Positions 35,236 through 57,243 are shown, counted from the first letter of the stretch. The stretch is 64,000 nucleotides of DNA from Desulfuromonadales bacterium (GCA_919902985.1 CAKKSC010000021.1:29676-93675), one strand, 5' to 3'. Notes: generated by a model not told the origin, from the sequence alone. Translations and numbers: made by a program.

Positions 35236-35260
35236 CAAGCCGTGCTTCTACCCCATCCCC

Positions 35261-38905: not shown

Positions 38906-39032
38906 ATCTTTCTCCGGCAAAGTCCCCGTGTATTGGGAATTTATTCTTGTTCTTCCCCCGCCCGATCTACCGGTAGCAGGGCCGCCGGGCCGCACATACC
39001 AATGGTCAGGTCTTGAAAAATCAGTCAGCCTG

Positions 39033-39515: not shown

Positions 39516-39708
39516 CTTATGCTCAATTCAGCGAAATATTTATTCACTGGTCCTCTTGAGAAGAGCAAGCCTTTCCAGGACTATTTCTATTATCCTGAAA
39601 GTCTTAGCGACAACTTGTTTCGGGAACCTTCCTGGTCTCGTCAGGCGATACCTCCACACCAGCAGGCCGTTTCTGATCCTGTCATCTGCCATATTTCTAA
39701 ATATCTGT

Positions 39709-40731: not shown

Positions 40732-41259
40732 CTACCCGATCACCCATATCAGGGTGCTGGACACCCCTATCCCTATGAGGCCCCCGACGATGACATCGGT
40801 CGGATAATGGAGCGACAGAAAGACCCTGGAGATGGCAATTAGGGACGCCATGACGAAAAGCGGAATAAACAGTAGCGGGAAGAACCAGGCCGCTGCCGTT
40901 GCAATGGCAAAGGCGTTTATTGAATGACCGGATGGGAATGAGTATTCATCAGGCGGTGGAAGGATAAACTCCATGTCTACGTAAGTCTCAAAGGGCCTCT
41001 TTCTTGTAGTGCTGTGCTTGATGGCCTTAAATACCGCCACGCACAGGATGACCGATATGATTCCTATTAATACAGCTTTCTGCCCGTCACTGCCCCCAAA
41101 TATGAGCAAAGACAGGCTCAGGAAGAGCCATATTGGGCCGTCCCCCAGCTTGCTTGAAATGACCATCAGGTCGCTTAGCCACCGGTGCGACTTGAGGTCC
41201 CCCAGACGGTAACTTATGAGAGAGTCGTATTTATATATTGTTTCCATAATTACTGCCAT
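40732..41259 (-). CDS. PAP2-family (type 2 phosphatidic acid phosphatase) membrane phosphatase
   Basis: All three PAP2 motifs are present: KxxxxxxRP (KHSTTRKRP), PSGH (FPSGHS) and SRxxxxxHxxxD (SRVFLSLHYPTD). Confidence 0.75.
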   Translation of the reverse strand: MAVIMETIYKYDSLISYRLGDLKSHRWLSDLMVISSKLGDGPIWLFLSLSLLIFGGSDGQKAVLIGIISVILCVAVFKAIKHSTTRKRPFETYVDMEFILPPPDEYSFPSGHSINAFAIATAAAWFFPLLFIPLFVMASLIAISRVFLSLHYPTDVIVGGLIGIGVSSTLIWVIG

Positions 41260-41279
41260 ATATTCCTCCTTAACTATTC

Positions 41280-41338
41280 GGGGACAGTCCCTATTCTACG
41301 ACTTCGCTGCGCTTCGTCCGTAAATTGGGACAGTCCCC
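41280..41338. repeat. 59-bp REP-like element, copy 3 of 3
   Basis: The core is identical to copy 1 (tattctacgacttcgctgcgcttcgtccgtaaat) with the same GGGACAGTCCC termini. Lies between the PAP2 and DAG-kinase-like genes. Confidence 0.8.
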
Positions 41339-42208
41339 ATCTTTCGGAAGGATTACTGTTATGCCTTCCTCTGCTGTTGAAAACTCAGCGGGCAACTGCC
41401 CCACCACATCCCCGTCAGCCTGTATGTAAGTCTTTCCTTTTGATGTTATCTTTAGACTCTTTACCGTGTGATATTCAACATCAGGGTACGTCAGATGCCT
41501 GTTTCGCATGACGCCCCATGTATACCTAAGTATGTTCCCGAACCCCTTGCTCTTGAATATGCATACATCCAGATCATTTCGTTCCATATCCGCAAAGGGG
41601 GTTATAGATATGGTCCCGCCATAATATTTCATATTCCCAACTACTGTCCCGTAACCATTGATCTTCTTGCCGCTGTCAAGCTCTATCTCCAGAGGGGAGG
41701 ACCGATAGGTCAACCCCCTCCCTAGTGCGGTCAGGAGATAAGACAGCCTTCCTGAGAGCCGCTTGAGCCTGACATCAAGGCCGTAAACCACATATGCATC
41801 AAACCCGACGCCCCCCATCAGGAGAAAATAGCGGCCGTTGACCCTTCCAAGGTTTAGCTTTCTTGGCAAACCTTCAAGAATGATGTTGCAGGCCCCTACA
41901 GGGTCCATAGGGATGCCAGTTTCAAGGGCGAATACGTTGACAGTCCCCAGAGGGATGACGCCAAGCGGAATGTCCGAGCCTGCAAGACCGTTTATGATCT
42001 CATTTATGGTCCCGTCCCCGCCTGCGCCTACCACAATATCAACATTTTGGCAGCGAGCATCCCTTGCTGCCTGAAGGGCATCCCCCCTCTTGCTTGTCTC
42101 ATAGAGGTGGACCGTTGCGCCTCTTAGTCTCAAATATGCCCTGACCTGCAGGATGATGTCCTTACCGCCTCGTCCTGCAGTAGGGTTTGCAATAAGTTTA
42201 ATAACCAT
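41291..42208 (-). CDS. Diacylglycerol-kinase catalytic-domain lipid kinase (YegS/BmrU family)
   Basis: Has the GAGGDGT-type motif in IVVGAGGDGTINEIINGL and the overall DAGK_cat layout. Confidence 0.75.
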   Translation of the reverse strand: MVIKLIANPTAGRGGKDIILQVRAYLRLRGATVHLYETSKRGDALQAARDARCQNVDIVVGAGGDGTINEIINGLAGSDIPLGVIPLGTVNVFALETGIPMDPVGACNIILEGLPRKLNLGRVNGRYFLLMGGVGFDAYVVYGLDVRLKRLSGRLSYLLTALGRGLTYRSSPLEIELDSGKKINGYGTVVGNMKYYGGTISITPFADMERNDLDVCIFKSKGFGNILRYTWGVMRNRHLTYPDVEYHTVKSLKITSKGKTYIQADGDVVGQLPAEFSTAEEGITVILPKDGDCPNLRTKRSEVVE

Positions 42209-42407
42209 AAGAAACCGATTCCATTACCCTGGAAATCGTCCGGCTCCTGAACTCGTTCCGAAAGAGATGGGCCAGGAGTATAGGGCAATTGGAGTGGTCC
42301 TCTGACTCGCAGTATTTCACCAGGTCAGAGAGATCTGGAGTCAGCTGGCCCAAAGAGGCCTGACAAAAAGATTTGTGTTCTTTATGCCCAAGATATATAC
42401 AGGTCAT
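42198..42407 (-). CDS. Small Cys4-His protein, paralogue of 55176..55379; first gene of a Pho-box-preceded operon
   Basis: 69 aa with the pattern C-x-Y-L-G-x9-C-x-A-S...Y-C-x-x-E-x-H-x-x-C-P-x-L-L-x-H, shared with the paralogue. Overlaps the DAGK-like gene start by 11 nt. Confidence 0.45.
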   Translation of the reverse strand: MTCIYLGHKEHKSFCQASLGQLTPDLSDLVKYCESEDHSNCPILLAHLFRNEFRSRTISRVMESVSYGY

Positions 42408-42460
42408 CTACATTACCTTCTGATTTGGAATTATATATGATGAGATTTTAACAGGCAGAT

Positions 42461-42499
42461 GTTACGGAATAGTTACAGGGAAATTAAGATTTGGTTACA
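42461..42499 (-). promoter_or_regulatory. Pho-box-like array: GTTACG / GTTACA / ATTAAG / GTTACA at 11-bp phasing
   Basis: Hexamers start at 42461, 42472, 42483 and 42494. The nearest repeat is 54 nt upstream of the small Cys-protein ATG (42407). A TATATAAT-like -10 hexamer lies between the array and the ATG. Confidence 0.6.
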
Positions 42500-42527
42500 A
42501 TTCGCATGTTTTTTATAGATCGAACTT

Positions 42528-43568
42528 CTATACCCTGTCTTTGTGGATATGGAAGGTGATGGTGGAGCCTGTGATAGTGCTGCGGCCGGTATGGATAAAG
42601 ACAGCCATCCATAAGATTATCAGGGAGTATAAAACTGGCGGCGTCAATGAGGCGAGGCCGAGGGTTACGCTTTCCGTCCCCGAAACCCGTGAATTGAACA
42701 AAAGGGATACAGCAGCAGCCAATATGATGGAGATTATCGCCATGATCTGGTACGAGGAAATCTGTCTTTCCCCCCTGTAATCGGCCCTCAATATCTCTGA
42801 GAATGTCCTCCATCCCTGGGTTACGGCGATGGTCAGCATAAAGGCGAGTGTAAAATGAGACATCAGGAACAGAAGAGTAGCGGCTATGCCTGTAACACAG
42901 TAAAGCAGCGCGGTAATTGCCTGAATGGGAACGACTTTGACTCCGTCCAAGCCTCTTTCGTATGCGATCTTCTTGGTTTTACCGATAAAAATAAAGGAGT
43001 ATCTGCCGAAGCACCTTTGAAATAGCGGATGCGTATCGGCCAGTGCCCTTCCATAACAGCAGCCAAAGCTGATGCATGCGAGGCGTCCTGTCCCTTCTCC
43101 GAGTGTGTACGATATGGCAATGGCAGTCATGGCCGGAACTATAGGGATATTGCTGTTTAAGATACGGTTTATAAGGAGGATGGCTGCGGGGGCCATTATT
43201 ATGCCCACGAAAGATGCCCCTCCGACCGTAAATGTATGCCTCTTTTTCTCCACAATAATTGCCACTATCCTTGATGCAGGCACACAGATCAAAAGTATGG
43301 AGAGCGTCATAATCGCAGTTCCTTCAAGCGGGACATGAATGGCCTCCATAAGGACCAGGAACACGGCCACCGCAATAACATAGGCATTTGCCGTCAGCAG
43401 GCCGTAGTACGTGAGATTAATTCCTCTCCATTCGCCTGATATGTTCTTGGATACAGGCAGTGAAGCTATAATCTGCCACTCCTCTCCAGGCAGCGTACGG
43501 AACCCCCATCTGAGGAGGAGCAACAGCATCAATGCAAGCGTTGAAACAAAGATCATTTCATTTGACAT
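42528..43568 (-). CDS. Polytopic membrane protein, possibly prolipoprotein diacylglyceryl transferase (Lgt)-like
   Basis: At least seven TM segments. GEGTGRLACISFGCCYGR resembles the Lgt region GLGAGRLGNFINGELWGR. The match is weak. Confidence 0.35.
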   Translation of the reverse strand: MSNEMIFVSTLALMLLLLLRWGFRTLPGEEWQIIASLPVSKNISGEWRGINLTYYGLLTANAYVIAVAVFLVLMEAIHVPLEGTAIMTLSILLICVPASRIVAIIVEKKRHTFTVGGASFVGIIMAPAAILLINRILNSNIPIVPAMTAIAISYTLGEGTGRLACISFGCCYGRALADTHPLFQRCFGRYSFIFIGKTKKIAYERGLDGVKVVPIQAITALLYCVTGIAATLLFLMSHFTLAFMLTIAVTQGWRTFSEILRADYRGERQISSYQIMAIISIILAAAVSLLFNSRVSGTESVTLGLASLTPPVLYSLIILWMAVFIHTGRSTITGSTITFHIHKDRV

Positions 43569-43608
43569 AACCTCTCCTTATATATTTGTCCCGAAAATAG
43601 CCGTTCTT

Positions 43609-43672
43609 TTGTAGGGGAGGGGCTTGTCCCCTCCAGATTATTCGGGCGGTCGCAAGGGACCACCCCTACGGA
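43609..43672. repeat. GTAGGGGAGGGGCTTGTCCCCTCCAG...GCAAGGGACC.CCCCTAC REP-like element; a second copy at 56649..56708
   Basis: The two copies share ttgtaggggaggggcttgtcccctccag and caagggacc(a/g)cccctac blocks. Both lie between co-directional minus-strand genes. Confidence 0.7.
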
Positions 43673-43675
43673 GCT

Positions 43676-44680
43676 TCAAGATTTTTTTGCTATTGACGAA
43701 CGCACCTTGACGTCGGTCTCTACGAGTGGAACCCCAAACCCTTTTGAGAAGCGGCTTTGCACGTCCTGACGTCTCATGTTCCCGACAATGTCTTCATCAA
43801 AACGAACACATCCTTTCTGAAATATCAGCAGATCTGTACTGCTGCCAGGACGGTACAGGCTCTTGGGCTGCCCCTTTTTAAGAAACATGCCGGGGACCAC
43901 AGGTTGCGGAGATTCATACCGTTCCCCGGAATAGCACTGGATTATCTCCCCTATCATAAGGGCCACTACTTCGATCATTGCCACCAACCCGATCCCAGTC
44001 CCCCCTGGGACATCGGTATCCATTACAGTGACAATCCTCTTGTTCTTTGAATAAGGAGTCACTACCTTCACAACCGCACCGGGGTTGCACGCATGATATG
44101 TCCCGTCTATCTCGTATATATCCCTGACCAGGCCGTCAACGGGAATATGGTTGTAATGATATTGTTCCGGCGTCAGGCGGAACAGGGCGAAATCGCCTTC
44201 TTTAAACGCCTCAAGCCACTCTTCTTTGTTGCGCCCCAACAGTTCCTCATAAACAAAGAACTTGTCCTTTAAGAATAAGGACAGGCCGTCAAAGGAGCCC
44301 ACCAGGACCTTTGAATCCGCTGGAGAAACGATTACAGAGCGGTCATCCGGCATGGGACGGCAATCCCAGTATCGTATCTTTCTTTCAAAGAAATGTCTTG
44401 GTGTTTTGAGGATTTCCGGGCTGTCCAGGCATTCATTCAGGTCAATCCCAGGGGTACTCAGCAACCATTTGGTAAATCCTGCTCCTGAACCCGGATAATC
44501 TCCGTAATTAATGAGTCCAATCAGGTCGGACGCCCAGGCGCTGGTCAGTCCCCTGAAGAGCGCAGGCATCTTCTCCCTTACTGAGGAATAAAGGAAGCTG
44601 ACGGGTCCGTCCTTATACAGCGGCTCTGTACATATCCTGTTCGTACTGCGTTCTAAATACTGATGTTTTATCGTAAACAT
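43676..44680 (-). CDS. Phosphatidylserine decarboxylase-family protein (Psd-like)
   Basis: PSD hallmark LTPEQYHYNHIPVDG (Y-H-x-x-H-x-P). A C-terminal G-S-S/T self-cleavage-type site (LYRPGSSTDLL). Length ~330 aa. Confidence 0.55.
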   Translation of the reverse strand: MFTIKHQYLERSTNRICTEPLYKDGPVSFLYSSVREKMPALFRGLTSAWASDLIGLINYGDYPGSGAGFTKWLLSTPGIDLNECLDSPEILKTPRHFFERKIRYWDCRPMPDDRSVIVSPADSKVLVGSFDGLSLFLKDKFFVYEELLGRNKEEWLEAFKEGDFALFRLTPEQYHYNHIPVDGLVRDIYEIDGTYHACNPGAVVKVVTPYSKNKRIVTVMDTDVPGGTGIGLVAMIEVVALMIGEIIQCYSGERYESPQPVVPGMFLKKGQPKSLYRPGSSTDLLIFQKGCVRFDEDIVGNMRRQDVQSRFSKGFGVPLVETDVKVRSSIAKKS

Positions 44681-47102: not shown

Positions 47103-47298
47103 ATTTCTTCCTCATTGGATATCTGTGGTTATAGTCAATAGCAAACTTGCGTAAACAATATCTTCACTTAAGACCGGCCATAAGTTTGCAGCTTCGATAT
47201 AAAAACTTTCTGATGGCAGTCTATGGCCTTTTCGCCTCGTTCGGCAGTGGGGTTTGCAATGACCTTGGTCCTCACACTGGCAACTATAAATACTTTAT

Positions 47299-47337
47299 GT
47301 TACAGGGATGTTAAGGTTGTGTTAAGAATTGGTTAAT
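47299..47337 (-). promoter_or_regulatory. Pho-box-like array (variant): GTTACA / GTTAAG / GTTAAG / GTTAAT at 11-bp phasing
   Basis: Hexamers start at 47299, 47310, 47321 and 47332. It sits upstream of the 829-aa/Psd-like operon. Confidence 0.5.
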
Positions 47338-47357
47338 TTTTTGGGGAGAGAGATGGT

Positions 47358-47651
47358 TTACCCGTTAAGACCTTCAATAAAGCCCATCACCTCTTCATTT
47401 GAAGCCATATCGGAGATCATGGAGTCGATGAACTTCATGATGTCTATCTCACTGGGCTTATAAAGGAGTGTAAGGCTTCCTGTCATAGGGTTAGTCTGGA
47501 TGTCTATTATTGACGGGGGGAATGTGACAAAGGAAAAGTTTCTGATGACCTCTGGGATATCTTCGACCTTGACGGAGGAAAGTCTCTTAATAAAGGGGAC
47601 ATCAAGTCTAATGCGTCCAGGGATATGATGGGCAACTTTGTAGGTAATCAT
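47358..47651 (-). CDS. Small HMA-like domain protein with conserved basic motif H-H-I-P-G-R-I-R-L (CoBaHMA-like, tentative)
   Basis: 97 aa (MITYKVAHHIPGRIRLDVP...NPMTGSLTLLYK). It shares the H-x-x-PGR-[IL]-R ... NP[LM]TGS[IL] pattern with 54785..55156, 53996..54454 and the N-terminus of the P-type ATPase. Confidence 0.45.
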   Translation of the reverse strand: MITYKVAHHIPGRIRLDVPFIKRLSSVKVEDIPEVIRNFSFVTFPPSIIDIQTNPMTGSLTLLYKPSEIDIMKFIDSMISDMASNEEVMGFIEGLNG

Positions 47652-47655
47652 CTGG

Positions 47656-47889
47656 CTATCCTATTTGTCTGAAATGAAGTCTTGCTGTCAGAACGTATTT
47701 TACCTTTCTGGGGACGAGTATGGGAAGATAGTCCTTAACCTTTGCCCCTTTCCTGGTCTTATCTAAGGCAACTTCATAGAGGAGTGCGACGTCGTCAAAA
47801 GGTATCCCCGTATCGTTGGCGATTGACTCAATATTATGAAGATGCTGCTTTTTTTCCTTTTCGTTGCCATAGAGTGCGGTTTTGTCCAT
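47656..47889 (-). CDS. Small hypothetical protein
   Basis: 77-aa ORF between the HMA-like gene and the CDF gene. No recognisable motif. The ORF is open to 47925. Confidence 0.3.
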   Translation of the reverse strand: MDKTALYGNEKEKKQHLHNIESIANDTGIPFDDVALLYEVALDKTRKGAKVKDYLPILVPRKVKYVLTARLHFRQIG

Positions 47890-47942
47890 AGAGATGCCCT
47901 TTTTATATAAGAATGATCGTAACAATGACGAAATCTACCAGC

Positions 47943-48803
47943 TTATCCCTCTTCATAAATCTCAACATAGACATCATGGAAACCGAACTTGCTCTCCAAT
48001 CTTTTCTTCAAGGCCTTTATCTCATCCCTGCTGCAAACCTGCCCATCTGTCCTTACCCTTGCAGCCATTATTGTCTTTTCTGGGGTTAATACCCAGACAC
48101 GCAGGTCTTTCACCTGCTTTATGCAGTCAAGACCGTTCCCTATAAATCTTCTTACTCCCTCAATGTCCATCCCGACAGGAGTCCCCTCCATGAGTATCCC
48201 AATGCTGCCTTTCAATAAACTGTATATTGGATATGCCACCAGGAGACCTATAAAGATACTTGTTACTGCATCCATCACGTAAAGACCGGTGAGTTGAATT
48301 ATCACTGAGGATACGATGACTCCCACGGAACCCAGGGCATCATTCAGAATGAGGATATAAGCCCCTTTTATGTTTATATCCCCGGAGCTTTTGTAGAGTT
48401 TGAGCAAGCCAAAACCGTTTACCAGAAGACCGAGAAGCGCTATGTAAAACACCTTCCCTGCATCCAATGCTTGGGGATTTCTTATCCTGTTGTAGGAATC
48501 GACCAGAACAAAAAAAAGCACAAAACCCACCAGCATTCCGTTAAAGAGCCCGGACAGGACCTTGGCCCTTTCATAGCCGAATGTATTGTTATTGTCCGCA
48601 GGCCTTTTGCTGAGTTTCGCGACATAAAGGACTATCAACTGGCCTGTTATGTTAATCGCCATGAATGACGCGTCTGTAAGCAGGGCAAGACTGTTATAAT
48701 AGAGCCCTCCAAGCAGTTCTATAAAAAAGTAACCTATTGTTAATATAAAGACAGTGCCCAGGTTGTAGGTCATTGTTTGCTCCGAAAATAGTTTTTTAAC
48801 CAC
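47943..48803 (-). CDS. Cation diffusion facilitator (CDF) family divalent-cation efflux transporter
   Basis: Six TM helices with the CDF signature region (SLALLTDASFMAIN in TM2, ILNDALGSVGVIV in TM5) and a C-terminal cytoplasmic domain. Confidence 0.8.
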   Translation of the reverse strand: MVKKLFSEQTMTYNLGTVFILTIGYFFIELLGGLYYNSLALLTDASFMAINITGQLIVLYVAKLSKRPADNNNTFGYERAKVLSGLFNGMLVGFVLFFVLVDSYNRIRNPQALDAGKVFYIALLGLLVNGFGLLKLYKSSGDINIKGAYILILNDALGSVGVIVSSVIIQLTGLYVMDAVTSIFIGLLVAYPIYSLLKGSIGILMEGTPVGMDIEGVRRFIGNGLDCIKQVKDLRVWVLTPEKTIMAARVRTDGQVCSRDEIKALKKRLESKFGFHDVYVEIYEEG

Positions 48804-48879
48804 CCCACCGAACCTCCCCTTACCAAGGGGAGGAATTAAATATTCCCCTCCTTGGCAAGGAGGGGCTAGGAAGGTGGTT
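48804..48879. repeat. GC-rich CCCCTCC...GGAGGGG hairpin cluster (REP-like), one of about seven similar hairpins in the window
   Basis: ccaccccacc...cccttaccaaggggagg...cccctccttggcaaggagggg...ggtgg. Similar CCCCTCCC/GGGAGGGG hairpins occur near 25316, 25770, 26446, 27836, 52868 and 62935. Confidence 0.6.
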
Positions 48880-50073
48880 CTAAAGCATCCCTGCCTTATC
48901 CGTAAGTTCCCACGGAAGCCCTATATCCATCCTCCCCACATGGCCATAGGCAGCCAGTTTTCTGTAAAAGCCCCCCTTATTGCTGGATGGCAAGTGCCTG
49001 AGATTGAATTGTCTTATTATTCCGGCAGGCCGAAAGTCGAAATGTCTTTCAATCCGAGAGGCTATTTCTTTATCCGGCATCTTCCCTGTTCCGAAGGTCT
49101 CAACTTGAATGCTTACGGGCCTTGAAAGGCCGATAGAATAGCTTAACATTACTTCACATTCGTCAGCCAGCCGGGCTGCCACAACATTCTTGGCGGCATA
49201 ACGGGCTGCATAGGCCCCGATCCTGTCGATACGCGATGGATCCTTGCCGCTCAAGGCTGCTCCGCTGTGTCTTGAATATTCTCCGTAAGTGTCTATGGCG
49301 TTCTTCCTTCCGGTCAGGCCCGAATGGATCGCAGGTCCTCCCAGGATAAAAGGCCCGTCGGGGTTGACGAATATCCTTGTATCGTTATCCGGTTTTATCT
49401 CTTCATCCTGAAACACGGAGTTGATGAGTGCTTCCCTTATATCCTCCTCAAGCTTATTCAAGCCTGGCCCTCCTGATGAGGCAACTATATTCTGGCTTGC
49501 GATCACTGTTATGCTATGGATCCTGAACGGCCGCCCATCTTTATATTCAACTCCTACCTGGGTCTTGCCGTCAGGGGCAAGGTATGGAAGCGTCCTTTGA
49601 AGTCTGGCTGACGTAAGCTTCCTTGAAAGCTTGTGAGCAAGCCAGATCGGGAGCGGCATAAGGGAAGGGGTCTGGTTGCAGGCAAAGCCGAAGACCGTAA
49701 CCTGGTTCTTGGCCTGGATGCGCTCAATATCATCATCGGAAAGGTTCTTCTCATCAAAAAAATCCTGTCCGTCATAAGGCTGTTCCCTGAGGCTCGTAAT
49801 TATACTGCACGTCTTAGAGTTAAAGGCGTTCTGGTCATAACCTATCTGGCTTATCACCTGCCTTGCAACGTTTGAAAAATCTATAATTGCCCTTGACTCA
49901 AAGCGGGCTGCGATAAAAACAATGGCGGTAGAGAGGGCACACTCCGCAATGACCTTTGAATAAGGGTCCTGCTGGAGAAAGTGATCGACAACGGCGTCGC
50001 TGATAATGTCGCAAAGCTTGTCAGGATGCCCTTCTGTTACCGACTCGGATGTAAACATAAAGTCCTGTTTCAT
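48880..50073 (-). CDS. S-adenosylmethionine synthetase (MetK)-like protein, divergent
   Basis: FTSESVTEGHPDKLCDIISDAV matches the MetK N-terminal motif. GGPAIHSGLTGRKNAIDTYGEYSRHSGAALSGKDPSRIDRIGAYAARYAAKNVVAARLA matches the MetK C-terminal P-loop region, but the usual GGGAFSGKD appears as SGAALSGKD. Overlaps the ATPase stop by 4 nt. Confidence 0.65.
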   Translation of the reverse strand: MKQDFMFTSESVTEGHPDKLCDIISDAVVDHFLQQDPYSKVIAECALSTAIVFIAARFESRAIIDFSNVARQVISQIGYDQNAFNSKTCSIITSLREQPYDGQDFFDEKNLSDDDIERIQAKNQVTVFGFACNQTPSLMPLPIWLAHKLSRKLTSARLQRTLPYLAPDGKTQVGVEYKDGRPFRIHSITVIASQNIVASSGGPGLNKLEEDIREALINSVFQDEEIKPDNDTRIFVNPDGPFILGGPAIHSGLTGRKNAIDTYGEYSRHSGAALSGKDPSRIDRIGAYAARYAAKNVVAARLADECEVMLSYSIGLSRPVSIQVETFGTGKMPDKEIASRIERHFDFRPAGIIRQFNLRHLPSSNKGGFYRKLAAYGHVGRMDIGLPWELTDKAGML

Positions 50074-53000
50074 TGTTTCACCTCGCTTTTTGTCGCCTCA
50101 TTTACCACCAGCGGAAGAAATGCGCTCCCCCCGATAACAAGACCGTCAACAATGCTTAACGGAGCAATTCCAAGGAGACCTCGCAACCCCGGCACTACAA
50201 GGGTCAATCCCTGCAATGCAAAGGAACCGGCCAGGGCGGCGTTCAGATAGCCGTTGGACTGCATGCCCGATCCGGGGGCACTATCGAAGATCCCATGTGT
50301 CTCCGACCTGCAGCTTAACGCATGAAGAAGCTGTCCGGAGGTCAGACTCATAAATGCCATGGTGCTTGCCTGCGGCCCAATTCCATACCTCATAATGCCG
50401 TATCCATATGCGCTGAGGGCCCCGGCTGAAAGCACTGAGGACTCGAAGAAAATCCGCTTGAAATCAGAACTCTTTACAATCGGCTCATCGGGGTCCCTTG
50501 GGGGGCGTGTAAGAACGTCCGGTTCCGGCGGCTCCATTGCCAGGGCAAGGCCTGGCGCTATATCGGACATGATATTGATCCATAAGAGCTGAATTGCGCT
50601 CAACGGCTCTCCAAAGCCTCCGGCGATAGATGTGAACATGACCGTTATCTCACTGATATTCGTGGAAAGAAGGAAATGGACAGACTTCCTTATGTTGTGG
50701 TAGATGGTCCTCCCCTGACTTATGGCAATGATCATGGTTTCAAGGTTGTCATCCTCAATCACGACATCCGCAACCTCGCGGGCTACATCGGTTCCGGTCT
50801 GCCCCATGGCTATCCCCACGTCTGCTGCTTTCAAAGCCGGGCCGTCGTTAATCCCGTCACCCGTCATGGCGACAACCTTGCCGGCCCTTTGAAAGGACTG
50901 GACTATCTGGAGCTTATGGGCCGGACTGACCCTGGAGAAGACCCGGACCCTCTCGCACAGGGCCGTCAACACCTTGGGATCCATTTCTTTCAGGTGGGAA
51001 GAGTCAAGTATCTCAAGCTGCTCCTCCATGCTGAGATTCAACTCTTTCCCGATAGAGTAGGCGGTGGGGCTCTGGTCGCCGGTGATCATGACCGTATCAA
51101 TACCTGCTGCATGGAATTTGCCTATCAGTTCTTTAACGCCTTTACGGACAGGGTCTGCCATGCCTACAAGGCCCAGCCATATAAGGTCGTATGAGGTCGA
51201 GAGGTCGAGAGGTTGAGAGGTTGAGAACTCCTCATCATCACAGATTCTCAACTTCTCATCTTCTGAATGAGTATAAGCCATGCCGAGAACCCGCAATGCA
51301 TCCCCTGCCATGCGCTCATTCACAGTCTCTATAGAGAAACGGTCGTTGTCGGTCAAAGGAAGTTTTTGGCCGTCTTTTATAAACCAGTTACATTGAGAGA
51401 GCACCTCATTGGGGCTCCCCTTTACCGCCGCCAAAAGTCTCTGTCCACCTGTCCCTTCTGCTGATGCATGATAGGAAACCATGTAGTTGCGGTTTTCGGA
51501 GCGGTGGACCATCCTGGTCAGCGGAAATTTCTTCCTTAGGCGGTCTATATCAACGCCGGTGCTGATTGCCATATGCAGCAGCGCATTCTCGGTAGACGAA
51601 CCGTTCAGGATGTATTCTCCATCGTTCATGGTTACCTCACTCTCATTGCACAGTACTGATATATGAATTAACCTGAGCAATTCGTCGTTGGAGTAAGGAT
51701 TTACGATGCCGTTTCCGGAAACAAAATTATTTTCAGAGATCCTTATATGTTTCATTCCGGTGTGTATTGCAACAACCGACATCCTGTTCATGGTAACGGT
51801 CCCTGTCTTGTCAAGGCAGATGGTCTGGACCGCACCCAGCGCCTCCACAGCGTCAAGATGCCTTATCAGGACGTTGTGTCTGCGCATCTTTCGAATGCCT
51901 AAAGCCAGGGTGGTTGTTGCGACCGTTGGAAGACCTTCCGGAACTGCGGCAACGGCCAGGGATATGGCAGACTTAAACATATGAAGAAAACCGTATCCTC
52001 TAAGAATGCCTGCAATGAATACTATGCCGCACACACCGCCGCAGATAAGCACTATTTGAGTGCCTATAGTATCAAGTTGTTTTTCCATGGGAGTTTGAGG
52101 AGGCCTTGTCCCGCCGACCAGGATTTGAATCATCCCTATCTCTGTATATCTGCCGGTGGCAATAATCACAGCCAGCCCCTGTCCGCCGGTAACGAGGGTC
52201 CCCATGTAGACGATGTTCGTCCTGTCCGCAAGAGGGATATTCTCGTCGGATGCAATAATTTCAGCCGTCTTGATAGCAGGCATACTTTCGCCTGTGAGGG
52301 CCGATTCGTCGACGCTTAAGTGTGTGGCCTCTATAAGTCTGGCATCTGCTGCCACATAACTTCCAGGTCTAAGGACAATAATGTCGCCAGGCACAAGTTT
52401 ACCGGCATTTATATTAGTGTAAAGGCCGTCTCTTATAACAATGGCTGACGGTCTGACAAGGCTCTTAAGGGAATGGATCGTCCTTTCCGTCTGCATTTCG
52501 GTAAAATACCCTATGGCCGCATTTATGCCTACTACACCAATTATAACCGCCGCATCAGCCACTCCTCCGGTAAAAATGGATATGCCAGCGGCCACTCCCA
52601 GGAGCGCTACAGGCAAAGATTTAAACTGTTCAAACAGCACGCTGAGCCCGGAGCGCGGGACAGACTCAGGGAGAAGATTCGGGCCGAATCTTTTTGTCCT
52701 GTCACTGACCGATTCAACAGTTAATCCGTTTTTCCGGTCAGTACCCATCAGATCAAGGACCTGGGCAGTACCCATAAGGTGCCAGGCTTCTACCGGCTGT
52801 TCCTGAGCACTGTTAATCAGCTTTCTGAGGGCCGGTCTGCCTGTTATCGGGGAGAAGCCAACTAACTTTTCCCCCCCTTTAGAAAAAGGGGGAGAGGAGG
52901 GGTTTGGTGTCTCAGGATTACTATTGTTGAAATAATCAATTACTACGCTTTCAAGGAGAGATGCAATGTCATTGGATGTATTCCCGGAGTTGAAGAGGAC

Positions 53001-53159
53001 AAGGACGTTGCCGGTCAGAGTATTAATGGCAACGTATGAAATCTCCTGCCTGTGTGAGAACCTTGCCTCTATATATTCCCTCAGGGGCTCCGAACGGTAA
53101 AGCCCTTTTACCTTATATCGAGCCCTTCCGCTTACAGCGGTGTTTATAGTCTGAACCAT
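50070..53159 (-). CDS. P-type cation-transporting ATPase (type II, Ca2+/cation-ATPase-like) with an extra N-terminal HMA-like (CoBaHMA-like) domain
   Basis: Phosphorylation site CLDKTGTVTMN; TGDQ (MITGDQ); hinge GDGINDGPALKAADVGIAMG; a Cation_ATPase_N-like segment (AWHLMGTAQVLDLMGTDRKNGLTVESVSDRTKRFGPN). The first ~60 aa (RARYKVKGLYRS...AINTLTGNVLVLFN) resemble the small HMA-like proteins. Confidence 0.85.
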   Translation of the reverse strand: MVQTINTAVSGRARYKVKGLYRSEPLREYIEARFSHRQEISYVAINTLTGNVLVLFNSGNTSNDIASLLESVVIDYFNNSNPETPNPSSPPFSKGGEKLVGFSPITGRPALRKLINSAQEQPVEAWHLMGTAQVLDLMGTDRKNGLTVESVSDRTKRFGPNLLPESVPRSGLSVLFEQFKSLPVALLGVAAGISIFTGGVADAAVIIGVVGINAAIGYFTEMQTERTIHSLKSLVRPSAIVIRDGLYTNINAGKLVPGDIIVLRPGSYVAADARLIEATHLSVDESALTGESMPAIKTAEIIASDENIPLADRTNIVYMGTLVTGGQGLAVIIATGRYTEIGMIQILVGGTRPPQTPMEKQLDTIGTQIVLICGGVCGIVFIAGILRGYGFLHMFKSAISLAVAAVPEGLPTVATTTLALGIRKMRRHNVLIRHLDAVEALGAVQTICLDKTGTVTMNRMSVVAIHTGMKHIRISENNFVSGNGIVNPYSNDELLRLIHISVLCNESEVTMNDGEYILNGSSTENALLHMAISTGVDIDRLRKKFPLTRMVHRSENRNYMVSYHASAEGTGGQRLLAAVKGSPNEVLSQCNWFIKDGQKLPLTDNDRFSIETVNERMAGDALRVLGMAYTHSEDEKLRICDDEEFSTSQPLDLSTSYDLIWLGLVGMADPVRKGVKELIGKFHAAGIDTVMITGDQSPTAYSIGKELNLSMEEQLEILDSSHLKEMDPKVLTALCERVRVFSRVSPAHKLQIVQSFQRAGKVVAMTGDGINDGPALKAADVGIAMGQTGTDVAREVADVVIEDDNLETMIIAISQGRTIYHNIRKSVHFLLSTNISEITVMFTSIAGGFGEPLSAIQLLWINIMSDIAPGLALAMEPPEPDVLTRPPRDPDEPIVKSSDFKRIFFESSVLSAGALSAYGYGIMRYGIGPQASTMAFMSLTSGQLLHALSCRSETHGIFDSAPGSGMQSNGYLNAALAGSFALQGLTLVVPGLRGLLGIAPLSIVDGLVIGGSAFLPLVVNEATKSEVKQ

Positions 53160-53225
53160 GACAGAACTGGTTTCCTTTCTAACTTCTACAGGAGTGACAG
53201 CTTTTACAAGACCTTATTAGTGTCT

Positions 53226-53948
53226 TTATCGTTTATTAATAGGATATTTGCCCTGTTTCCCTTTTACCCTGCCGGCAGCCTCAGGCTCCTCAATTTCTTC
53301 CTTTACCGGAAAGACCCTTTCTTCCAGAGTGGCTGCAGCAGCCGTCCTCGGCTCCGGCAGGGCAGCACATGCGATGTCCTTAATGCCGCCAACCACACCG
53401 ACCAGTATGTCTTTAACCGACCTGACGGCTGTGTTTCCGATATCGCCGGCCGCCTCAATGGCGCTACTGACAGCGACAGCAGCCACCTGTCCCACATTTC
53501 CACCTACTTCCCTTGTTGCCTCTATGACGCCGTCAACTGTCCTTCTGGCGACCATGGCCACATCGGCCCCGATCTCAGCTGCTCCATTGACAGCGCCTTT
53601 TACCGTCTGTCCAGCAGCAGTAATCACGTCTCCGCCCACATCGCTCACACCCATTACGACCCCCTTTGCCACACTCTTGGTGCTAAGGGTGAGCCCTGTG
53701 CCTACCTCCTCAGTTGCGGCTATTGCCCCCTTAATGACATCTTTTGTAATGTTTACGGTTTCGCCCGCCACGTCGCCTGTTGTCCGCAGGGCATTGGAAA
53801 CAGTGGCCCTCACAAGGCCCACGATCTCCGCCTGGATTTCATTTATTCCTTTCAGGCTTCCTACGATACCTTCCTTAACCGAGTTGCCTGTGCTGCTTAA
53901 TCCTACTTTGATTGTTGTCCCGCTTGTTTCTGTTGTTTCGGTGATCAT
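53226..53948 (-). CDS. Repeat-rich amphipathic protein (Val/Gly/Ala/Thr-rich ~11-residue periodic repeats)
   Basis: AAGGAGG RBS 7 nt before the ATG at 53948. The sequence is dominated by repeats such as TVKGAVNGAAEIGADVAMVARRTVDGVIEATREVGGNVGQVAAVAVSSAIEAAGDIGNTAV. The opposite-strand ORF is low-complexity and rejected. Confidence 0.45.
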   Translation of the reverse strand: MITETTETSGTTIKVGLSSTGNSVKEGIVGSLKGINEIQAEIVGLVRATVSNALRTTGDVAGETVNITKDVIKGAIAATEEVGTGLTLSTKSVAKGVVMGVSDVGGDVITAAGQTVKGAVNGAAEIGADVAMVARRTVDGVIEATREVGGNVGQVAAVAVSSAIEAAGDIGNTAVRSVKDILVGVVGGIKDIACAALPEPRTAAAATLEERVFPVKEEIEEPEAAGRVKGKQGKYPINKR

Positions 53949-53995
53949 TTTATTCCTCCTTTGAATTTTTACCACAAAGCCTTGCGGGTTAATTT

Positions 53996-54454
53996 TTATG
54001 CTCCTTTGAGAAAGATGTTCATCCCGTACCAGATAGCTGTATACCAGGGGATTGAAGCCGCGTTTCCAATACTGATCTGGTATAGACCCGCAGCCAAAAG
54101 TATTAGAAAGGCCAGGGTTGAGATATCCAGTTCATGGCCTGTTAACCTTTTAACCTGCGTATTGAAGTCATTGAAAGTAGTTTTTATCCCTGCAGCCACA
54201 GTAGGGGTCTGATTTGCTCCGTTAAGCCTGAAGAGCTTATTGGTTTCAGCAATTTTCATTACCGATGTAGAGTTTCCTGAATGGATTATCAGTATACTCC
54301 CGGTCAGTGGATTGACCTCTGTCCGGTCTATTCCCTTATGTTGCTGCAATAAGGCGTTGGCGTTCTTAAAGTAACTATCATCGCCCTTTTTGGATGGAAT
54401 TTTTACCCGTATTCTTCCAGAGGTCTGATGGCTGAGGTACGCATCAGGCAGCAT
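53996..54454 (-). CDS. HMA-like (CoBaHMA-like) domain protein with C-terminal hydrophobic segment
   Basis: MLPDAYLSHQTSGRIRVKIP...NPLTGSILIIHS, then a predicted TM helix (ISTLAFLILLAAGLYQI). The ORF is open to 54535. Confidence 0.4.
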   Translation of the reverse strand: MLPDAYLSHQTSGRIRVKIPSKKGDDSYFKNANALLQQHKGIDRTEVNPLTGSILIIHSGNSTSVMKIAETNKLFRLNGANQTPTVAAGIKTTFNDFNTQVKRLTGHELDISTLAFLILLAAGLYQISIGNAASIPWYTAIWYGMNIFLKGA

Positions 54455-54755
54455 TAACAGCGCCCTCCTGAGCGATGCCGGCTGTTTGCACGACCTCCTG
54501 CTGGGGCTCGGCCAGCTCGGATTTCGACTCGGCAATAAGGTCTTCGACTACCTCCTGCATCTCGGCCATTACCTCTTTTCCTTTTTCAAAGACGATGAGT
54601 CCCCCCTTGATTGCGCCCTTGGCCAGGGGCTTTGCGACCGCTGCCGCAATAGGTATAACGATAGGCGCCAGTATTGCAGCGCCCAGACCTATTACAAGCA
54701 TAGGTACGATGTTGCTCCCTTTTAGAACGCCTGTGATGTCATCAAACAGTGCCAT
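54444..54755 (-). CDS. Small membrane-associated protein resembling the DUF5132 family (tentative)
   Basis: 103 aa: MALFDDITGVL...PMLVIGLGAAILAPIVIPIAAAVAKPLAKGAIKGGLIVFEKGKEVMAEMQEVVEDLIAE. One hydrophobic helix followed by an amphipathic acidic tail. Confidence 0.4.
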   Translation of the reverse strand: MALFDDITGVLKGSNIVPMLVIGLGAAILAPIVIPIAAAVAKPLAKGAIKGGLIVFEKGKEVMAEMQEVVEDLIAESKSELAEPQQEVVQTAGIAQEGAVNAA

Positions 54756-54784
54756 TTGTCCTTTACCTCCTGATTTGAAATAGG

Positions 54785-55156
54785 CTATATGAGTATAGCC
54801 AAATATGATAAAGCGCTTCCTTCAAATGCCTTCTCTACAAATGTCCCGAAAAGGGCTTTTTTAACGACATGTCCTGCCTTTGTAACAGCAGAGTGTATAT
54901 ACTGGTCGTTTGTTATGGCCCTTGAAGGATCAAAATAGCTGGCCCTTCTGAGAACGCCTAATATCTCCCTGGAATGAACAGTCCTTGGATCATAGTTGAT
55001 TACAATGCTTCCAGTAATAATATTAATTTCGGTAGACAATATTCCCTTGATTTGCCGGAGCAGACCCCCAACCTCCTCAGCTATCCAACCTTTCCCTTTA
55101 ATCGCTGGATTTTTAACCCTTAATCTACCAGGGACATCGTGAATATAATGATCCAT
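54785..55156 (-). CDS. Small HMA-like (CoBaHMA-like) domain protein
   Basis: GGAGGTG RBS 8 nt before the ATG at 55156. MDHYIHDVPGRLRVKNPAIK...NIITGSIVINYDP. The ORF is open to 55189. Confidence 0.45.
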   Translation of the reverse strand: MDHYIHDVPGRLRVKNPAIKGKGWIAEEVGGLLRQIKGILSTEINIITGSIVINYDPRTVHSREILGVLRRASYFDPSRAITNDQYIHSAVTKAGHVVKKALFGTFVEKAFEGSALSYLAILI

Positions 55157-55175
55157 CCAACTCACCTCCACTTTT

Positions 55176-55379
55176 TTATTTAAAAGCAAAGTCGTTATAT
55201 CTTTGTCCGTGATTTAAGCCATGCACCATGAGTAGTGGACAGCGGTGATGCTCTTCGGTTTTGCAGTACCTTTCAAGTTCAAAGGCGCTTGGAGTCATAT
55301 GAAATGTAGAGGCATTACACATCTTATTTTTTTTGATAGTTCCTAAATACGGGCAATCGCCTATTTCACTTGGCTTCAT
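55176..55379 (-). CDS. Small Cys4-His protein, paralogue of 42198..42407; first gene of the cation-cluster operon
   Basis: 67 aa: CPYLGTIKKNKMCNASTFHMTPSAFELERYCKTEEHHRCPLLMVH, with the same Cys/His spacing as the paralogue. Confidence 0.45.
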   Translation of the reverse strand: MKPSEIGDCPYLGTIKKNKMCNASTFHMTPSAFELERYCKTEEHHRCPLLMVHGLNHGQRYNDFAFK

Positions 55380-55422
55380 AAAAACCCCCTCATTTTGATC
55401 TGCTACACTTTAAACTATAAAT

Positions 55423-55461
55423 ATTACAAGATTGTGACAGTTGCATTAAGATTTGGTTACA
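55423..55461 (-). promoter_or_regulatory. Pho-box-like array: ATTACA / GTGACA / ATTAAG / GTTACA at 11-bp phasing
   Basis: Hexamers start at 55423, 55434, 55445 and 55456. The nearest repeat is 44 nt upstream of the ATG at 55379. A TATTTATAG -10-like element follows. Confidence 0.6.
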
Positions 55462-57130: not shown

Positions 57131-57177
57131 ACGTTTATCTCCTTTTTATGATTTCAGATGGAGTTTAACAAAGGATT

Positions 57178-57216
57178 GTTACGGGTTTATGACGGATAGG
57201 TTAAGATTTAGTTACA
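57178..57216 (-). promoter_or_regulatory. Pho-box-like array: GTTACG / ATGACG / GTTAAG / GTTACA at 11-bp phasing
   Basis: Hexamers start at 57178, 57189, 57200 and 57211. The nearest repeat is 48 nt upstream of the PsiE-like ATG (57130). It lies in the intergenic region shared with the divergent intI gene. Confidence 0.55.
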
Positions 57217-57243
57217 ATTTTAATTAAAAGGATTTTCTGTGTT

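What the first reader, a model, noticed from the sequence alone, without database searches (positions are those of the whole stretch)
42198..55379. Two paralogous small Cys4-His proteins each head a Pho-box-preceded operon
Seen in sequence: the 69-aa and 67-aa proteins share C-x-Y-L-G-x(8-9)-C-x-A-S-x(4-5)-T-P-x(6)-Y-C-x-x-E-x-H-x-x-C-P-x-L-L-x-H. They also share near-identical upstream architecture: the 11-bp repeat array, a TATA-like hexamer, and then the ATG.

The Cys/His spacing suggests a single metal (Zn or Fe) site unlike classical CxxC zinc ribbons.

Inference: these are dedicated metal-dependent regulators, chaperones or anti-sigma-like factors. One sits in the lipid operon and one in the cation-cluster operon.
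Basis: seen in the sequence. Interest (0 to 1): 0.5.

Follow-up and report, generated by a model that had tools for sequence, protein, structure and literature searches.

The report
Phosphate-starvation small four-cysteine protein family
Two small genes in this window belong to an undescribed family of about 60-residue proteins with four invariant cysteines; in uncultured groundwater Deltaproteobacteria-type bacteria this family usually sits as the first gene behind phosphate-starvation (Pho-box) promoters, and its biochemical job is still unknown.

Summary
P1 (42198-42407, minus) and P2 (55176-55379, minus) are paralogues (40% identity, E 3e-13). Each follows four 11-bp direct repeats (yyGTAAY-n4) and a TAnAnT hexamer exactly 6 nt later. 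The same promoter layout precedes pstS, a phosphate porin, psiE and an 829-aa gene in this window, so these are PhoB-type Pho-box promoters.

The proteins define a real family with no Pfam, NCBIfam, PHROG, PADLOC or PDB match:
- 81 clusters among 1.84 billion representatives, all 51-102 aa, none fused to another domain.
- Only the four cysteines are invariant; neither histidine is conserved, so "Cys4-His" is wrong.
- dN/dS is 0.04-0.25 and Shine-Dalgarno sites are strong.

In about 30 other loci from uncultured MAGs, homologues sit beside porin-pstSCAB-phoU, PhoB-like regulators, psiE or PhoH. In 23 of 29 loci they have a Pho-box array upstream. Several genomes carry two or more copies in their Pho clusters.

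Best reading: a phosphate-starvation-induced cytoplasmic mini-protein folded around a tetra-cysteine metal centre (Zn or Fe-S), acting as a small accessory or regulatory factor. Pho-regulon membership is well supported. Metal binding and the partner are inferred. Anti-sigma, zinc-ribbon, WhiB, DUF1127 and metallothionein membership all fail.

The parts
42198..42407 (-). P1: 69-aa member of the small Cys4 family (Cys3, Cys15, Cys33, Cys41). Its stop overlaps the start of the downstream YegS/DAGK-like lipid kinase gene by 11 nt.
   Evidence: dN/dS vs orthologue L006 = 0.21. AF2 core pLDDT 74-81.
55176..55379 (-). P2: 67-aa paralogue (Cys9, Cys21, Cys39, Cys47).
   Evidence: AF2 gives the same hairpin plus two-helix topology, pLDDT 65.
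42457..42500 (-). Pho-box array of P1: TTGTAACCAAA TCTTAATTTCC CTGTAACTATT CCGTAACATCT (4 x 11 bp).
42445..42450 (-). -10-like hexamer TAAAAT, 6 nt after the last repeat of the P1 array.
42416..42420 (-). Shine-Dalgarno-like GAAGG, 8 nt before the P1 ATG.
   Evidence: read from sequence.
55419..55462 (-). Pho-box array of P2: CTGTAACCAAA TCTTAATGCAA CTGTCACAATC TTGTAATATTT. The stop codon of the upstream REC-HisKA-HATPase gene lies inside the first repeat.
55407..55412 (-). -10-like hexamer TAAAGT, 6 nt after the last repeat of the P2 array.
55385..55391 (-). Shine-Dalgarno GAGGGGG, 5 nt before the P2 ATG.
   Evidence: read from sequence.
57174..57217 (-). Same 4 x 11-bp array plus TAAACT hexamer in front of psiE (56702-57130). 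Used as a reference Pho promoter.
47295..47338 (-). Same array type plus TATAGT hexamer in front of the 829-aa unknown / PSD-like / LGT-like genes.
37319..37362 (-). Same array plus TATACT hexamer in front of the 117-aa unknown gene and the phosphate-selective porin (Porin_O_P).
35199..35242 (-). Pho box (two good proximal repeats, CTGTAATATAA CTGTAACATTT) plus CATACT hexamer in front of pstS-pstC-pstA-pstB-phoU.
29897..30580 (-). PhoB-type response regulator (REC plus winged helix), the likely protein that reads the arrays.
   Evidence: TIGR02154 PhoB 289.7 bits, just below the equivalog cut-off of 296.2. PhoU lies next door at 30656-31342.
47358..55189 (-). Genes downstream of P2: CoBaHMA/HMA_2 134 aa (more likely starting at ATG 55156), DUF5132, CoBaHMA 179 aa, 249-aa repeat protein, type-IIA P-type ATPase with N-terminal CoBaHMA, MetK paralogue, CDF transporter, DUF3562, CoBaHMA 97 aa.
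37357..42208 (-). Genes downstream of P1: YegS/DAGK-like lipid kinase, PAP2 phosphatase, MGDG-synthase-like glycosyltransferase, LMW phosphatase/ArsC-like, histidine kinase, stand-alone REC.

Best explanation
P1 and P2 are two copies of an undescribed family of roughly 55-70-residue cytoplasmic proteins.

Shown here:
- Each gene is transcribed from a PhoB-type promoter. Four tandem 11-bp Pho-box repeats replace the -35 element, and a TAnAnT -10 hexamer follows 6 nt later.
- The genes are therefore most likely switched on by phosphate starvation, together with pstSCAB, the phosphate porin, psiE, the lipid-remodelling genes and the CoBaHMA/cation-transporter genes of the same 27-kb cluster.
- The proteins are under purifying selection.
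- Across species, family members are typically the first gene of Pho operons, often in more than one copy per Pho cluster.

Inferred:
- The four invariant cysteines lie before strand 1, at the end of strand 2, at the end of helix 1 and before helix 2. Cys1 and Cys4 are mostly followed by Pro.
- They hold one tetra-thiolate metal centre, either Zn(II) or an Fe-S cluster, that folds the mini-domain.
- The conserved acidic patch (T-E-E-H/Y), the amphipathic helix (CP-x-LLA-x-x-LR) and the disordered basic tail form an interaction surface.
- Through that surface the protein acts as a stoichiometric accessory or regulatory factor of the phosphate-starvation response. The partner would be a two-component protein (PhoR-like kinase, REC proteins, PhoB) or the transcription machinery.
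- It is not an enzyme, a transporter or an operon-specific chaperone.
For: Promoter:
- The identical 17-mer occurs in front of P1 and P2, and near-identical copies sit in front of psiE and the porin operon: 4 matches vs 0.18 expected.
- Six arrays lie on the same strand, each with a TAnAnT-type hexamer (CATACT at pstS) exactly 6 nt after repeat 4. They include pstS, Porin_O_P and psiE.
- The layout fits the published Pho-box definition of two 11-nt units, 7 conserved plus 4 variable, with E. coli core CTGTCAT (PMC4415409).
- PhoB-type regulator and PhoU genes lie in the same cluster.

Family:
- 81 clusters with E<=1e-3, all 51-102 aa.
- The four Cys are 100% conserved in 129 sequences. Ala and Ser after Cys2 are above 90%.
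- dN/dS is 0.04-0.25 in 10 orthologue pairs.
- A Shine-Dalgarno site is present in 21 of 28 loci.

Regulon membership across species:
- Homologues are directly followed by porin-pstS(CAB-phoU) in at least 10 loci.
- They are followed by a PhoB-like regulator in 5 loci.
- They are preceded by psiE in 3 loci, and sit next to DAGK-PAP2-MGDG or the ATPase/MetK/CoBaHMA cluster in others.
- The distant subfamily also sits at pstSCAB-phoU or near PhoH.
- A Pho-box array above the 99th percentile of background lies 30-170 nt (mostly 30-75) upstream of the homologue's start codon in 23 of 29 loci, mostly with a TAnnnT hexamer at the same 6-nt offset.
- A second copy in locus L016 also has its own box.

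Structure:
- Both paralogues give the same hairpin plus two-helix model with a disordered tail. Core pLDDT is 74-81 for P1.
- Net charge is -2 in the core and +2.4 in the tail.

Precedent for small proteins acting on Pho signalling through protein-protein contacts: DUF1127 proteins bind PhoR (PMC12501420).
Against: - No experiment or expression data were available. Induction by phosphate starvation is inferred from promoter anatomy and synteny.
- Metal binding is inferred from invariant cysteines only. The model coordinates could not be inspected, so convergence of the four thiols is unverified, and pLDDT is only moderate (65-70).
- No partner is identified. The neighbours differ from locus to locus.
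- No fusion protein exists that would point to a function.
- The PWM was built from this window's own sites, so scores inside the window are circular. Only the other loci are independent.
- Some extra copies (L029, L032, L035, L036, L037) show no array with this PWM.
Confidence: 0.55

Rival explanations
1. Metal or metalloid handling. The Cys4 protein buffers or chaperones a thiophilic ion that becomes a problem during phosphate starvation. Candidates are Zn, Cd or Fe released when polyphosphate is consumed, or As(III) formed from arsenate taken up by Pst. It would work alongside the co-regulated cation transporters or ArsC-like phosphatases.
For: - The P2 unit carries a P-type ATPase and a CDF transporter; in the orthologous locus L006 (found through the P1 orthologue) MgtE takes the place of the CDF.
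- An LMW-phosphatase/ArsC-like gene lies within a few kb of the small gene in the window and in about 8 other loci.
- In L007/L008 and L023 the small gene is divergent from an arsR-LMWPc (plus ACR3-type SBF) unit.
- The thiolates are invariant.
Against: - One four-Cys site per roughly 60 residues is a poor buffer, and 74 of 129 members have no further Cys.
- Most homologues head porin-pst or phoB-like units with no metal or arsenic gene adjacent.
- The conserved acidic patch and helix look like a protein interface, which a simple chelator would not need.
Confidence: 0.2
2. Redox protein. The four cysteines carry a [4Fe-4S] or [2Fe-2S] cluster, or form redox-active disulfides. The protein would serve as an electron or thiol donor for a starvation-specific reaction such as arsenate or phosphite chemistry.
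For: - Cys-Pro follows Cys1 in 81% and Cys4 in 84% of sequences, as in ferredoxin CP motifs (the comparison is from general knowledge).
- The Cys spacing lacks CxxC zinc knuckles.
- The hosts are groundwater Deltaproteobacteria, Thermodesulfobacteriota or Nitrospirae-type MAGs, probably anaerobes.
Against: - No redox enzyme is a consistent neighbour.
- The spacing C-x11-C-x17-C-x7-C matches no known ferredoxin, HiPIP or WhiB pattern.
- There are no Pfam Fe-S family hits even at E<=1.
Confidence: 0.1
3. Anti-sigma-like or zinc-ribbon transcription factor.
For: - It is small, Cys-rich and sits at promoter-proximal positions.
Against: - No HxxxCxxC (ZAS) motif and no CxxC pairs.
- No sigma gene is adjacent in any locus. 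The only nearby sigma is a 301-aa sigma-70 family gene 4 kb away on the other strand in L009.
- No Pfam or NCBIfam match.
Confidence: 0.04
4. The ORFs are not functional proteins. They would be chance ORFs or cis-acting leader ORFs whose translation merely tunes downstream genes.
For: - They always sit at the 5' end of transcription units.
- P1 overlaps the next gene by 11 nt, which suggests translational coupling.
Against: - dN/dS is 0.04-0.25.
- The four Cys are invariant across 129 sequences that are as little as about 20-30% identical.
- 81 clusters were found by an exhaustive profile search.
- A consistent predicted fold is obtained for both paralogues.
Confidence: 0.03

Closest known systems
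PhoB-dependent Pho-box promoters of E. coli and other Proteobacteria (pstS, phoA, psiE, ugpB)
   Same: - Tandem 11-bp direct repeat units with a 7-bp conserved core; here yyGTAAY against E. coli CTGTCAT.
- The repeats sit where a -35 element would be, at a fixed distance from a -10 hexamer.
- They occur in front of pstS, psiE and the phosphate porin in the same genome (PMC4415409).
   Different: - There are four repeat units (two Pho boxes) at most promoters.
- The core differs slightly (GTAAC).
- The second unit is a recurring degenerate TCTTAAT/C.
- Binding by the cluster's PhoB has not been shown.
Small DUF1127 proteins (A. tumefaciens SDPs, E. coli YjiS) that bind PhoR
   Same: They are small proteins under 70 aa that are tied to phosphate homeostasis and act by protein-protein interaction on the Pho two-component system (PMC12501420). 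This is the mechanism proposed here.
   Different: - No sequence relationship; there is no Pfam DUF1127 hit at E<=1.
- DUF1127 proteins have no Cys4 centre.
- They are not described there as the lead gene of Pho-box operons.
- No interaction has been shown for the present family.
YtfK (DUF1107) of E. coli, a 68-aa starvation protein that activates SpoT (own knowledge; PMC8600398 listed)
   Same: It is of similar size, is a cytoplasmic stand-alone mini-protein, and is linked to the phosphate-starvation response.
   Different: It is unrelated in sequence (no Pfam hit), has no cysteine centre, and has a different taxonomic range.
WhiB-like (Wbl) proteins of Actinobacteria (own knowledge)
   Same: They are small proteins with four invariant Cys holding a metal cluster and a basic C-terminal tail, and they act by binding the transcription machinery. 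This is a functional analogy only.
   Different: - The Wbl Cys spacing (C-x14-22-C-x2-C-x5-C) and the G[V/I]WGG turn are absent.
- No Pfam Whib hit.
- The phylum is different.
CoBaHMA (Pfam HMA_2) / DUF5132 gene neighbourhoods of cyanobacterial ccyA (intracellular amorphous Ca-carbonate)
   Same: The genes immediately downstream of P2 are CoBaHMA, DUF5132, CoBaHMA and a Ca-type transporter. The same families neighbour ccyA in Microcystis (bioRxiv 10.1101/2024.07.07.602159).
   Different: - This concerns the neighbours and not the Cys4 protein.
- No calcyanin is present here.
- The cluster is Pho-box-controlled and includes MetK and a CDF transporter.

Membership tests
PhoB-type Pho-box promoter | Two or more tandem 11-bp direct repeat units (7 conserved plus 4 variable) resembling CTGTCAT | tested here: met
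   Four units at both genes with consensus yyGTAAY-n4. Definition taken from PMC4415409.
PhoB-type Pho-box promoter | Array replaces the -35 element, with a -10 hexamer at a fixed short distance | tested here: met
   A TAnAnT-type hexamer (CATACT at pstS) lies exactly 6 nt after repeat 4 at all six window arrays. It lies at the same offset in most homologous loci.
PhoB-type Pho-box promoter | Same motif in front of canonical Pho genes of the same genome | tested here: met
   The arrays precede pstS, Porin_O_P and psiE.
PhoB-type Pho-box promoter | A PhoB orthologue is present | tested here: met
   ORF 29897-30580 scores 289.7 bits on TIGR02154 PhoB, marginally below the equivalog cut-off of 296.2. 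It lies next to phoU and pstB.
PhoB-type Pho-box promoter | PhoB~P binding and induction on phosphate limitation | not testable with these tools
   Needs EMSA, footprinting or expression data.
Zinc ribbon / rubredoxin-like Cys4 | Two CxxC (or CxxH) knuckles | tested here: not met
   The spacing is C-x11-C-x17-C-x7-C and no CxxC is present in the family consensus.
ZAS-type anti-sigma factor | HxxxCxxC motif and an adjacent cognate ECF sigma gene | tested here: not met
   The motif is absent. No ECF sigma gene is adjacent in any locus examined. No zf-HC2 hit was found.
DUF1127 and YtfK/DUF1107 small Pho-linked proteins | Match to the Pfam family model | tested here: not met
   None of the 51 members hits either family, even at E<=1.
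WhiB-like | C-x(14-22)-C-x2-C-x5-C spacing and a Pfam Whib match | tested here: not met
   The spacing differs and there is no Pfam hit.
Metallothionein | High Cys content with many CxC/CxxC clusters | tested here: not met
   74 of 129 members have exactly four Cys.
Any solved structure or known fold | Significant sequence or fold match to the PDB | tested here: not met
Tetra-cysteine metal site (Zn or Fe-S) | The four thiolates converge in 3D and the protein binds metal | not testable with these tools
   Model coordinates are not exposed. Only the secondary structure is known, and it places the Cys at element ends. Metal analysis is needed.

The most novel reading that the evidence does not exclude
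The Cys4 mini-protein is a metal- or redox-sensing co-regulator of the Pho response. An Fe-S or Zn centre would gate its binding to PhoR, PhoB, a REC protein or sigma-70 region 4. Phosphate-starvation promoters would then be tuned by the cell's metal or redox state. Encoding a copy at the head of several Pho operons would supply the factor in proportion to regulon activity. This would be a previously unknown layer of Pho signalling in anaerobic Deltaproteobacteria-type lineages, functionally analogous to WhiB or DUF1127 proteins but evolutionarily unrelated to them.
Probability: 0.12. Interest if true: 0.7.

Novelty: new variant of a known kind. Interest (0 to 1): 0.45.

Why it matters
Pho regulons are among the best-studied bacterial stress circuits, yet this lineage places an unannotated and strongly conserved four-cysteine mini-protein at the very front of its core Pho operons (porin-pstSCAB, phoB-like, lipid remodelling, cation handling).

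If it is a regulator, it adds a new component to phosphate signalling, possibly a link to metal or redox status. If it handles metals, it ties phosphate starvation to cation or arsenic homeostasis.

It also gives a clean sequence marker plus a promoter motif for recognising Pho-regulated genes in uncultured groundwater Deltaproteobacteria. Those genes include the unexplained CoBaHMA/DUF5132/P-type ATPase/MetK cluster and an 829-aa unknown protein.

The limits are that the family is confined to uncultured lineages and that its molecular function remains inferred.

Tried and rejected
- Word-index homologue searches with single proteins found only 1 hit (P2) and 4 hits (P1). The exhaustive profile search was needed to find the family.
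A 13-sequence sub-alignment worked, but it only recovers members carrying CxTEEHYRC, so the taxonomic range is under-sampled.
- Pfam, NCBIfam, PHROGs and PADLOC gave no family.
- The afdb50 library was unavailable.
- tblastn against plasmids and phages found no match.
- Rfam and tRNA scans of the window were empty, so no riboswitch or leader RNA explains the upstream regions.
- The generic promoter/terminator scan was uninformative, at or below shuffle expectation.
- A 379-aa 'member' of one cluster (P0134) looks like an unrelated ATP-grasp (SucC-like) enzyme and a clustering artefact, not a fusion.
- I considered and rejected RiPP precursor (no maturase neighbour, no leader/core layout, whole length conserved), toxin-antitoxin, secreted peptide (no signal peptide or TM segment visible in the sequence) and metallothionein.
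- Literature searches found no description of such a family.

Full report
**Observation**

On the minus strand, ORF 42198-42407 (P1, 69 aa) and ORF 55176-55379 (P2, 67 aa) are present as described. They align without gaps over 45 residues at 40% identity, E 3e-13. The spacings need small corrections: G-x7-C, not x8-9, and P-x7-YC, not x6.

Both genes have good ribosome-binding sites, GAAGG for P1 and GAGGGGG for P2. Neither has an obvious signal peptide or membrane segment in its sequence.

**Upstream architecture**

Both upstream regions start with the identical 17-mer TGTAACCAAATCTTAAT. With up to 3 mismatches this 17-mer occurs 4 times in the window, all on the minus strand, against 0.18 expected; 0 of 100 shuffles reach 4.

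Written in 11-bp register, each site is four direct repeats of yyGTAAY-n4. A weight-matrix scan finds six such arrays, all on the minus strand:

| Array | Gene(s) it precedes |
|---|---|
| 35199-35242 | pstS |
| 37319-37362 | 117-aa unknown gene plus Porin_O_P porin |
| 42457-42500 | P1 |
| 47295-47338 | 829-aa unknown gene, PSD-like, LGT-like |
| 55419-55462 | P2 |
| 57174-57217 | psiE |

In all six, a -10-like hexamer lies exactly 6 nt after the fourth repeat: CATACT, TATACT, TAAAAT, TATAGT, TAAAGT and TAAACT.

This matches the published anatomy of a Pho box, which is tandem 11-nt units of 7 conserved plus 4 variable bases, with E. coli core CTGTCAT (PMC4415409). From general knowledge, such boxes stand in for the -35 element.

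The same cluster encodes the following:
- pstS, pstC, pstA and pstB, PhoU, and a PhoB-type regulator (289.7 bits against an equivalog cut-off of 296.2).
- A phosphate-selective porin and PsiE.

'Pho-box-preceded' is therefore well supported by internal comparison, although binding itself is untested.

One qualification applies. P1's box lies in a 120-nt gap behind a co-directional LGT-like gene, and P2's first repeat contains the stop codon of the upstream REC-HisKA-HATPase gene. These are promoters inside a 27-kb co-directional Pho super-cluster (29.9-57.2 kb), not isolated operons.

**Is it a real protein family?**

- Single-sequence word-index searches found almost nothing.
- A profile of six sequences searched exhaustively against 1.84 billion representatives found 81 clusters at E<=1e-3, 16 of them at E<=1e-10. 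All are 51-102 aa and none is fused to another domain.
- In a 129-sequence alignment the only invariant columns are the four cysteines. Ala and Ser after Cys2 are above 90%.
- The family consensus is M-x-C-P-Y-L-x8-9-C-x-A-S-x5-P-x3-E-x3-Y-C-x-T-E-E-H-x-R-C-P-I-L-L-A-x-x-L-R (H/Y and Y/D alternate at the H-x positions), followed by a variable basic tail.
- The histidine in E-x-H is H in 70% and Y in 24% of sequences. The second histidine is H in only 35%. The site, if any, is Cys4 and not Cys4-His.
- The core is acidic (mean net charge -2) and the tail is basic (+2.4).
- Ten orthologue pairs give dN/dS of 0.04-0.25; P1 against its L006 orthologue gives 0.21.
- 21 of 28 homologues have a Shine-Dalgarno site at the right distance.
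- There is no match in Pfam (even at E<=1 for 51 members), NCBIfam, PHROGs or PADLOC. PDB sequences, plasmids and phages also gave no hit.
- The window comes from an NCBI MAG labelled 'Deltaproteobacteria bacterium' (proteins MEK6725771-801). The accession arithmetic is consistent with both small ORFs being annotated there, which is an inference.

**Genomic context elsewhere**

Contexts were retrieved for family members from independent metagenomes and MAGs. The hosts are uncultured 'Deltaproteobacteria' and Thermodesulfobacteriota, mostly from groundwater, plus one Nitrospirae MAG.

tblastn with the window's own Pho proteins and simple ORF calling show these arrangements:
- Followed directly by Porin_O_P and pstS(-CAB-phoU): L012, L013, L017, L019, L020, L025, L026, L027, L029, L030.
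- Followed directly by pstS: L014, L024.
- Followed directly by a PhoB-like REC plus winged-helix regulator: L009, L015, L016, L022, L028.
- Preceded by psiE: L011, L014, L035. The psiE / REC-HK hybrid / small-gene triad seen in the window recurs in L009 and L035.
- Next to DAGK-PAP2-MGDG: L018.
- Next to the CoBaHMA/ATPase/MetK cluster: L010.

A distant subfamily (CPF...CSASLSS...C-x-x-E-N-Y-D-x-CPIFLAKLLR) sits upstream of pstSCAB-phoU in L037. In L036 it sits near PhoH and a CoBaHMA gene.

Using the window-derived half-site matrix, a four-repeat array scoring above the 99th percentile of random windows (13.6) lies 30-170 nt (mostly 30-75) upstream of the homologue's start codon in 23 of 29 loci. 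Most have a TAnnnT hexamer at the same 6-nt offset. The exceptions include genes that sit directly behind psiE or another ORF.

A six-frame HMM scan shows only two copies in this window. It finds extra copies in the Pho clusters of L016, L029, L032, L035, L018, L036 and L037. L016 repeats the window's pattern: copy 1, then porin and pstS, then copy 2, then a phoB-like gene, and both copies have Pho boxes.

The common denominator is therefore the Pho regulon, not lipids or cations.

**Structure**

- AF2 with 51 and with 129 family sequences gives the same topology for P2 (pLDDT 65) and for P1 (pLDDT 70.5; core 74-81; tail below 50).
- The topology is a beta-hairpin, a helix, a short turn and a long helix.
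- The four Cys lie just before strand 1, at the end of strand 2, at the end of helix 1 and just before helix 2.

**Mechanism**

Shown here: the Pho-type promoter anatomy, conservation, purifying selection, lead-gene position, multi-copy occurrence and cytoplasmic mini-protein character.

Inferred:
- Induction by phosphate starvation through PhoB.
- A structural Zn or Fe-S centre on the four Cys. The Cys-Pro pairs and the absence of CxxC knuckles leave Fe-S open in these probable anaerobes.
- Action as a stoichiometric accessory or regulatory factor through its acidic patch, amphipathic helix and basic tail.

The variety of downstream genes (outer-membrane porin, response regulator, CoBaHMA protein, lipid kinase) argues against an operon-specific chaperone. 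The low Cys count argues against a metal buffer. The absence of sigma genes and of ZAS or CxxC motifs argues against an anti-sigma factor or zinc ribbon.

A two-component gene (REC-only, REC-HK hybrid or PhoB-like) is directly adjacent in about half of the loci. This fits a signalling partner, but it is also what any Pho-cluster gene would show.

Small DUF1127 proteins that bind PhoR provide a precedent for this mode of action without being related (PMC12501420). From my own knowledge, YtfK and WhiB-like proteins are further analogies.

Rival readings, in order: metal or arsenic handling (0.2), redox or Fe-S carrier (0.1), anti-sigma-like factor (0.04), cis-acting or non-functional ORF (0.03).

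**Novelty and verdict**

The promoters are ordinary Pho boxes. The protein family is, as far as these libraries and the searchable literature show, undescribed. It is a conserved, lineage-restricted member of the Pho regulon. I class it as a new variant of a known kind, namely small accessory proteins of the phosphate-starvation response. Interest is moderate because the function is still inferred and the hosts are uncultured.

Noticed in passing
window 29897-57217 (minus strand): About 27 kb of co-directional genes form one Pho super-cluster with six Pho-box promoters. In order it runs: psiE, REC-HK hybrid, P2 with the CoBaHMA/ATPase/MetK/CDF genes, the 829-aa/PSD-like/LGT-like genes, P1 with the lipid kinase/PAP2/MGDG synthase/LMW phosphatase/HK/REC genes, the 117-aa gene with the porin, and pstSCAB-phoU-phoB.
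   Followed up: partly
window 47358-55189 (minus): - This Pho-box-controlled cluster holds three stand-alone CoBaHMA (Pfam HMA_2) proteins, a DUF5132 protein and a 249-aa repeat protein with no family.
- It also holds a type-IIA (Ca-type) P-type ATPase with an N-terminal CoBaHMA domain, a MetK paralogue, a CDF transporter and DUF3562.
- CoBaHMA, DUF5132 and a Ca transporter are also the neighbours of ccyA (intracellular amorphous carbonate) in Microcystis.
- The ATPase/MetK/CoBaHMA core recurs in L006 (where MgtE takes the place of the CDF) and in L010.
- This suggests a phosphate-starvation-linked cation or inclusion-handling system.
   Followed up: partly
window 44613-47102 (minus): An 829-aa protein has no Pfam or NCBIfam hit. 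It has its own Pho box (47295-47338) and is followed by a phosphatidylserine-decarboxylase-like gene and an LGT-like membrane protein. It is conserved at 76% identity in L006. It is a candidate for an unknown phosphate-sparing lipid pathway.
   Followed up: partly
window 36656-37009 (minus) and leader 37010-37318: A 117-aa protein with no family hit occupies the position between the Pho box and the porin that the Cys4 gene holds in many other genomes. It has a 57%-identical homologue before the porin in L010. The leader between its Pho box and its start is unusually long, about 309 nt.
   Followed up: no
window 57244-58293 (plus): An integron-integrase gene (TIGR02249, 375 bits) is divergent from psiE. 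It is followed by a small nucleotidyltransferase gene (58402-58737) and then by housekeeping genes (panC, a TPR protein). The direct-repeat search of 58250-64000 found only seven short two-copy families and no repeated cassette-like unit; inverted repeats were not searched.
   Followed up: partly
L018 (3364-3597 and 11471-11713, both minus), L036 7586-7852, L037 7254-7457: A third, more divergent Cys4 subfamily (CP-x-LKGS-x2-G-x2-C ... C-M-S-x4-C) sits in tandem with, or near, the main family in other Pho clusters. It has the same C-x12-C-x17-C-x7-C spacing but scores weakly or not at all against the family HMM (no hit for the L037 ORF).
   Followed up: partly
L007/L008 7081-7868 and L023 3698-4461: In two genomes the Cys4 gene is divergently transcribed from an ArsR / LMW-phosphatase (ArsC-like) unit; in L007/L008 this unit also carries an ACR3-type (SBF) transporter. 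An LMW-phosphatase gene is also within a few kb in the window and in about 8 other loci. This hints at a link between the phosphate and arsenate responses.
   Followed up: no
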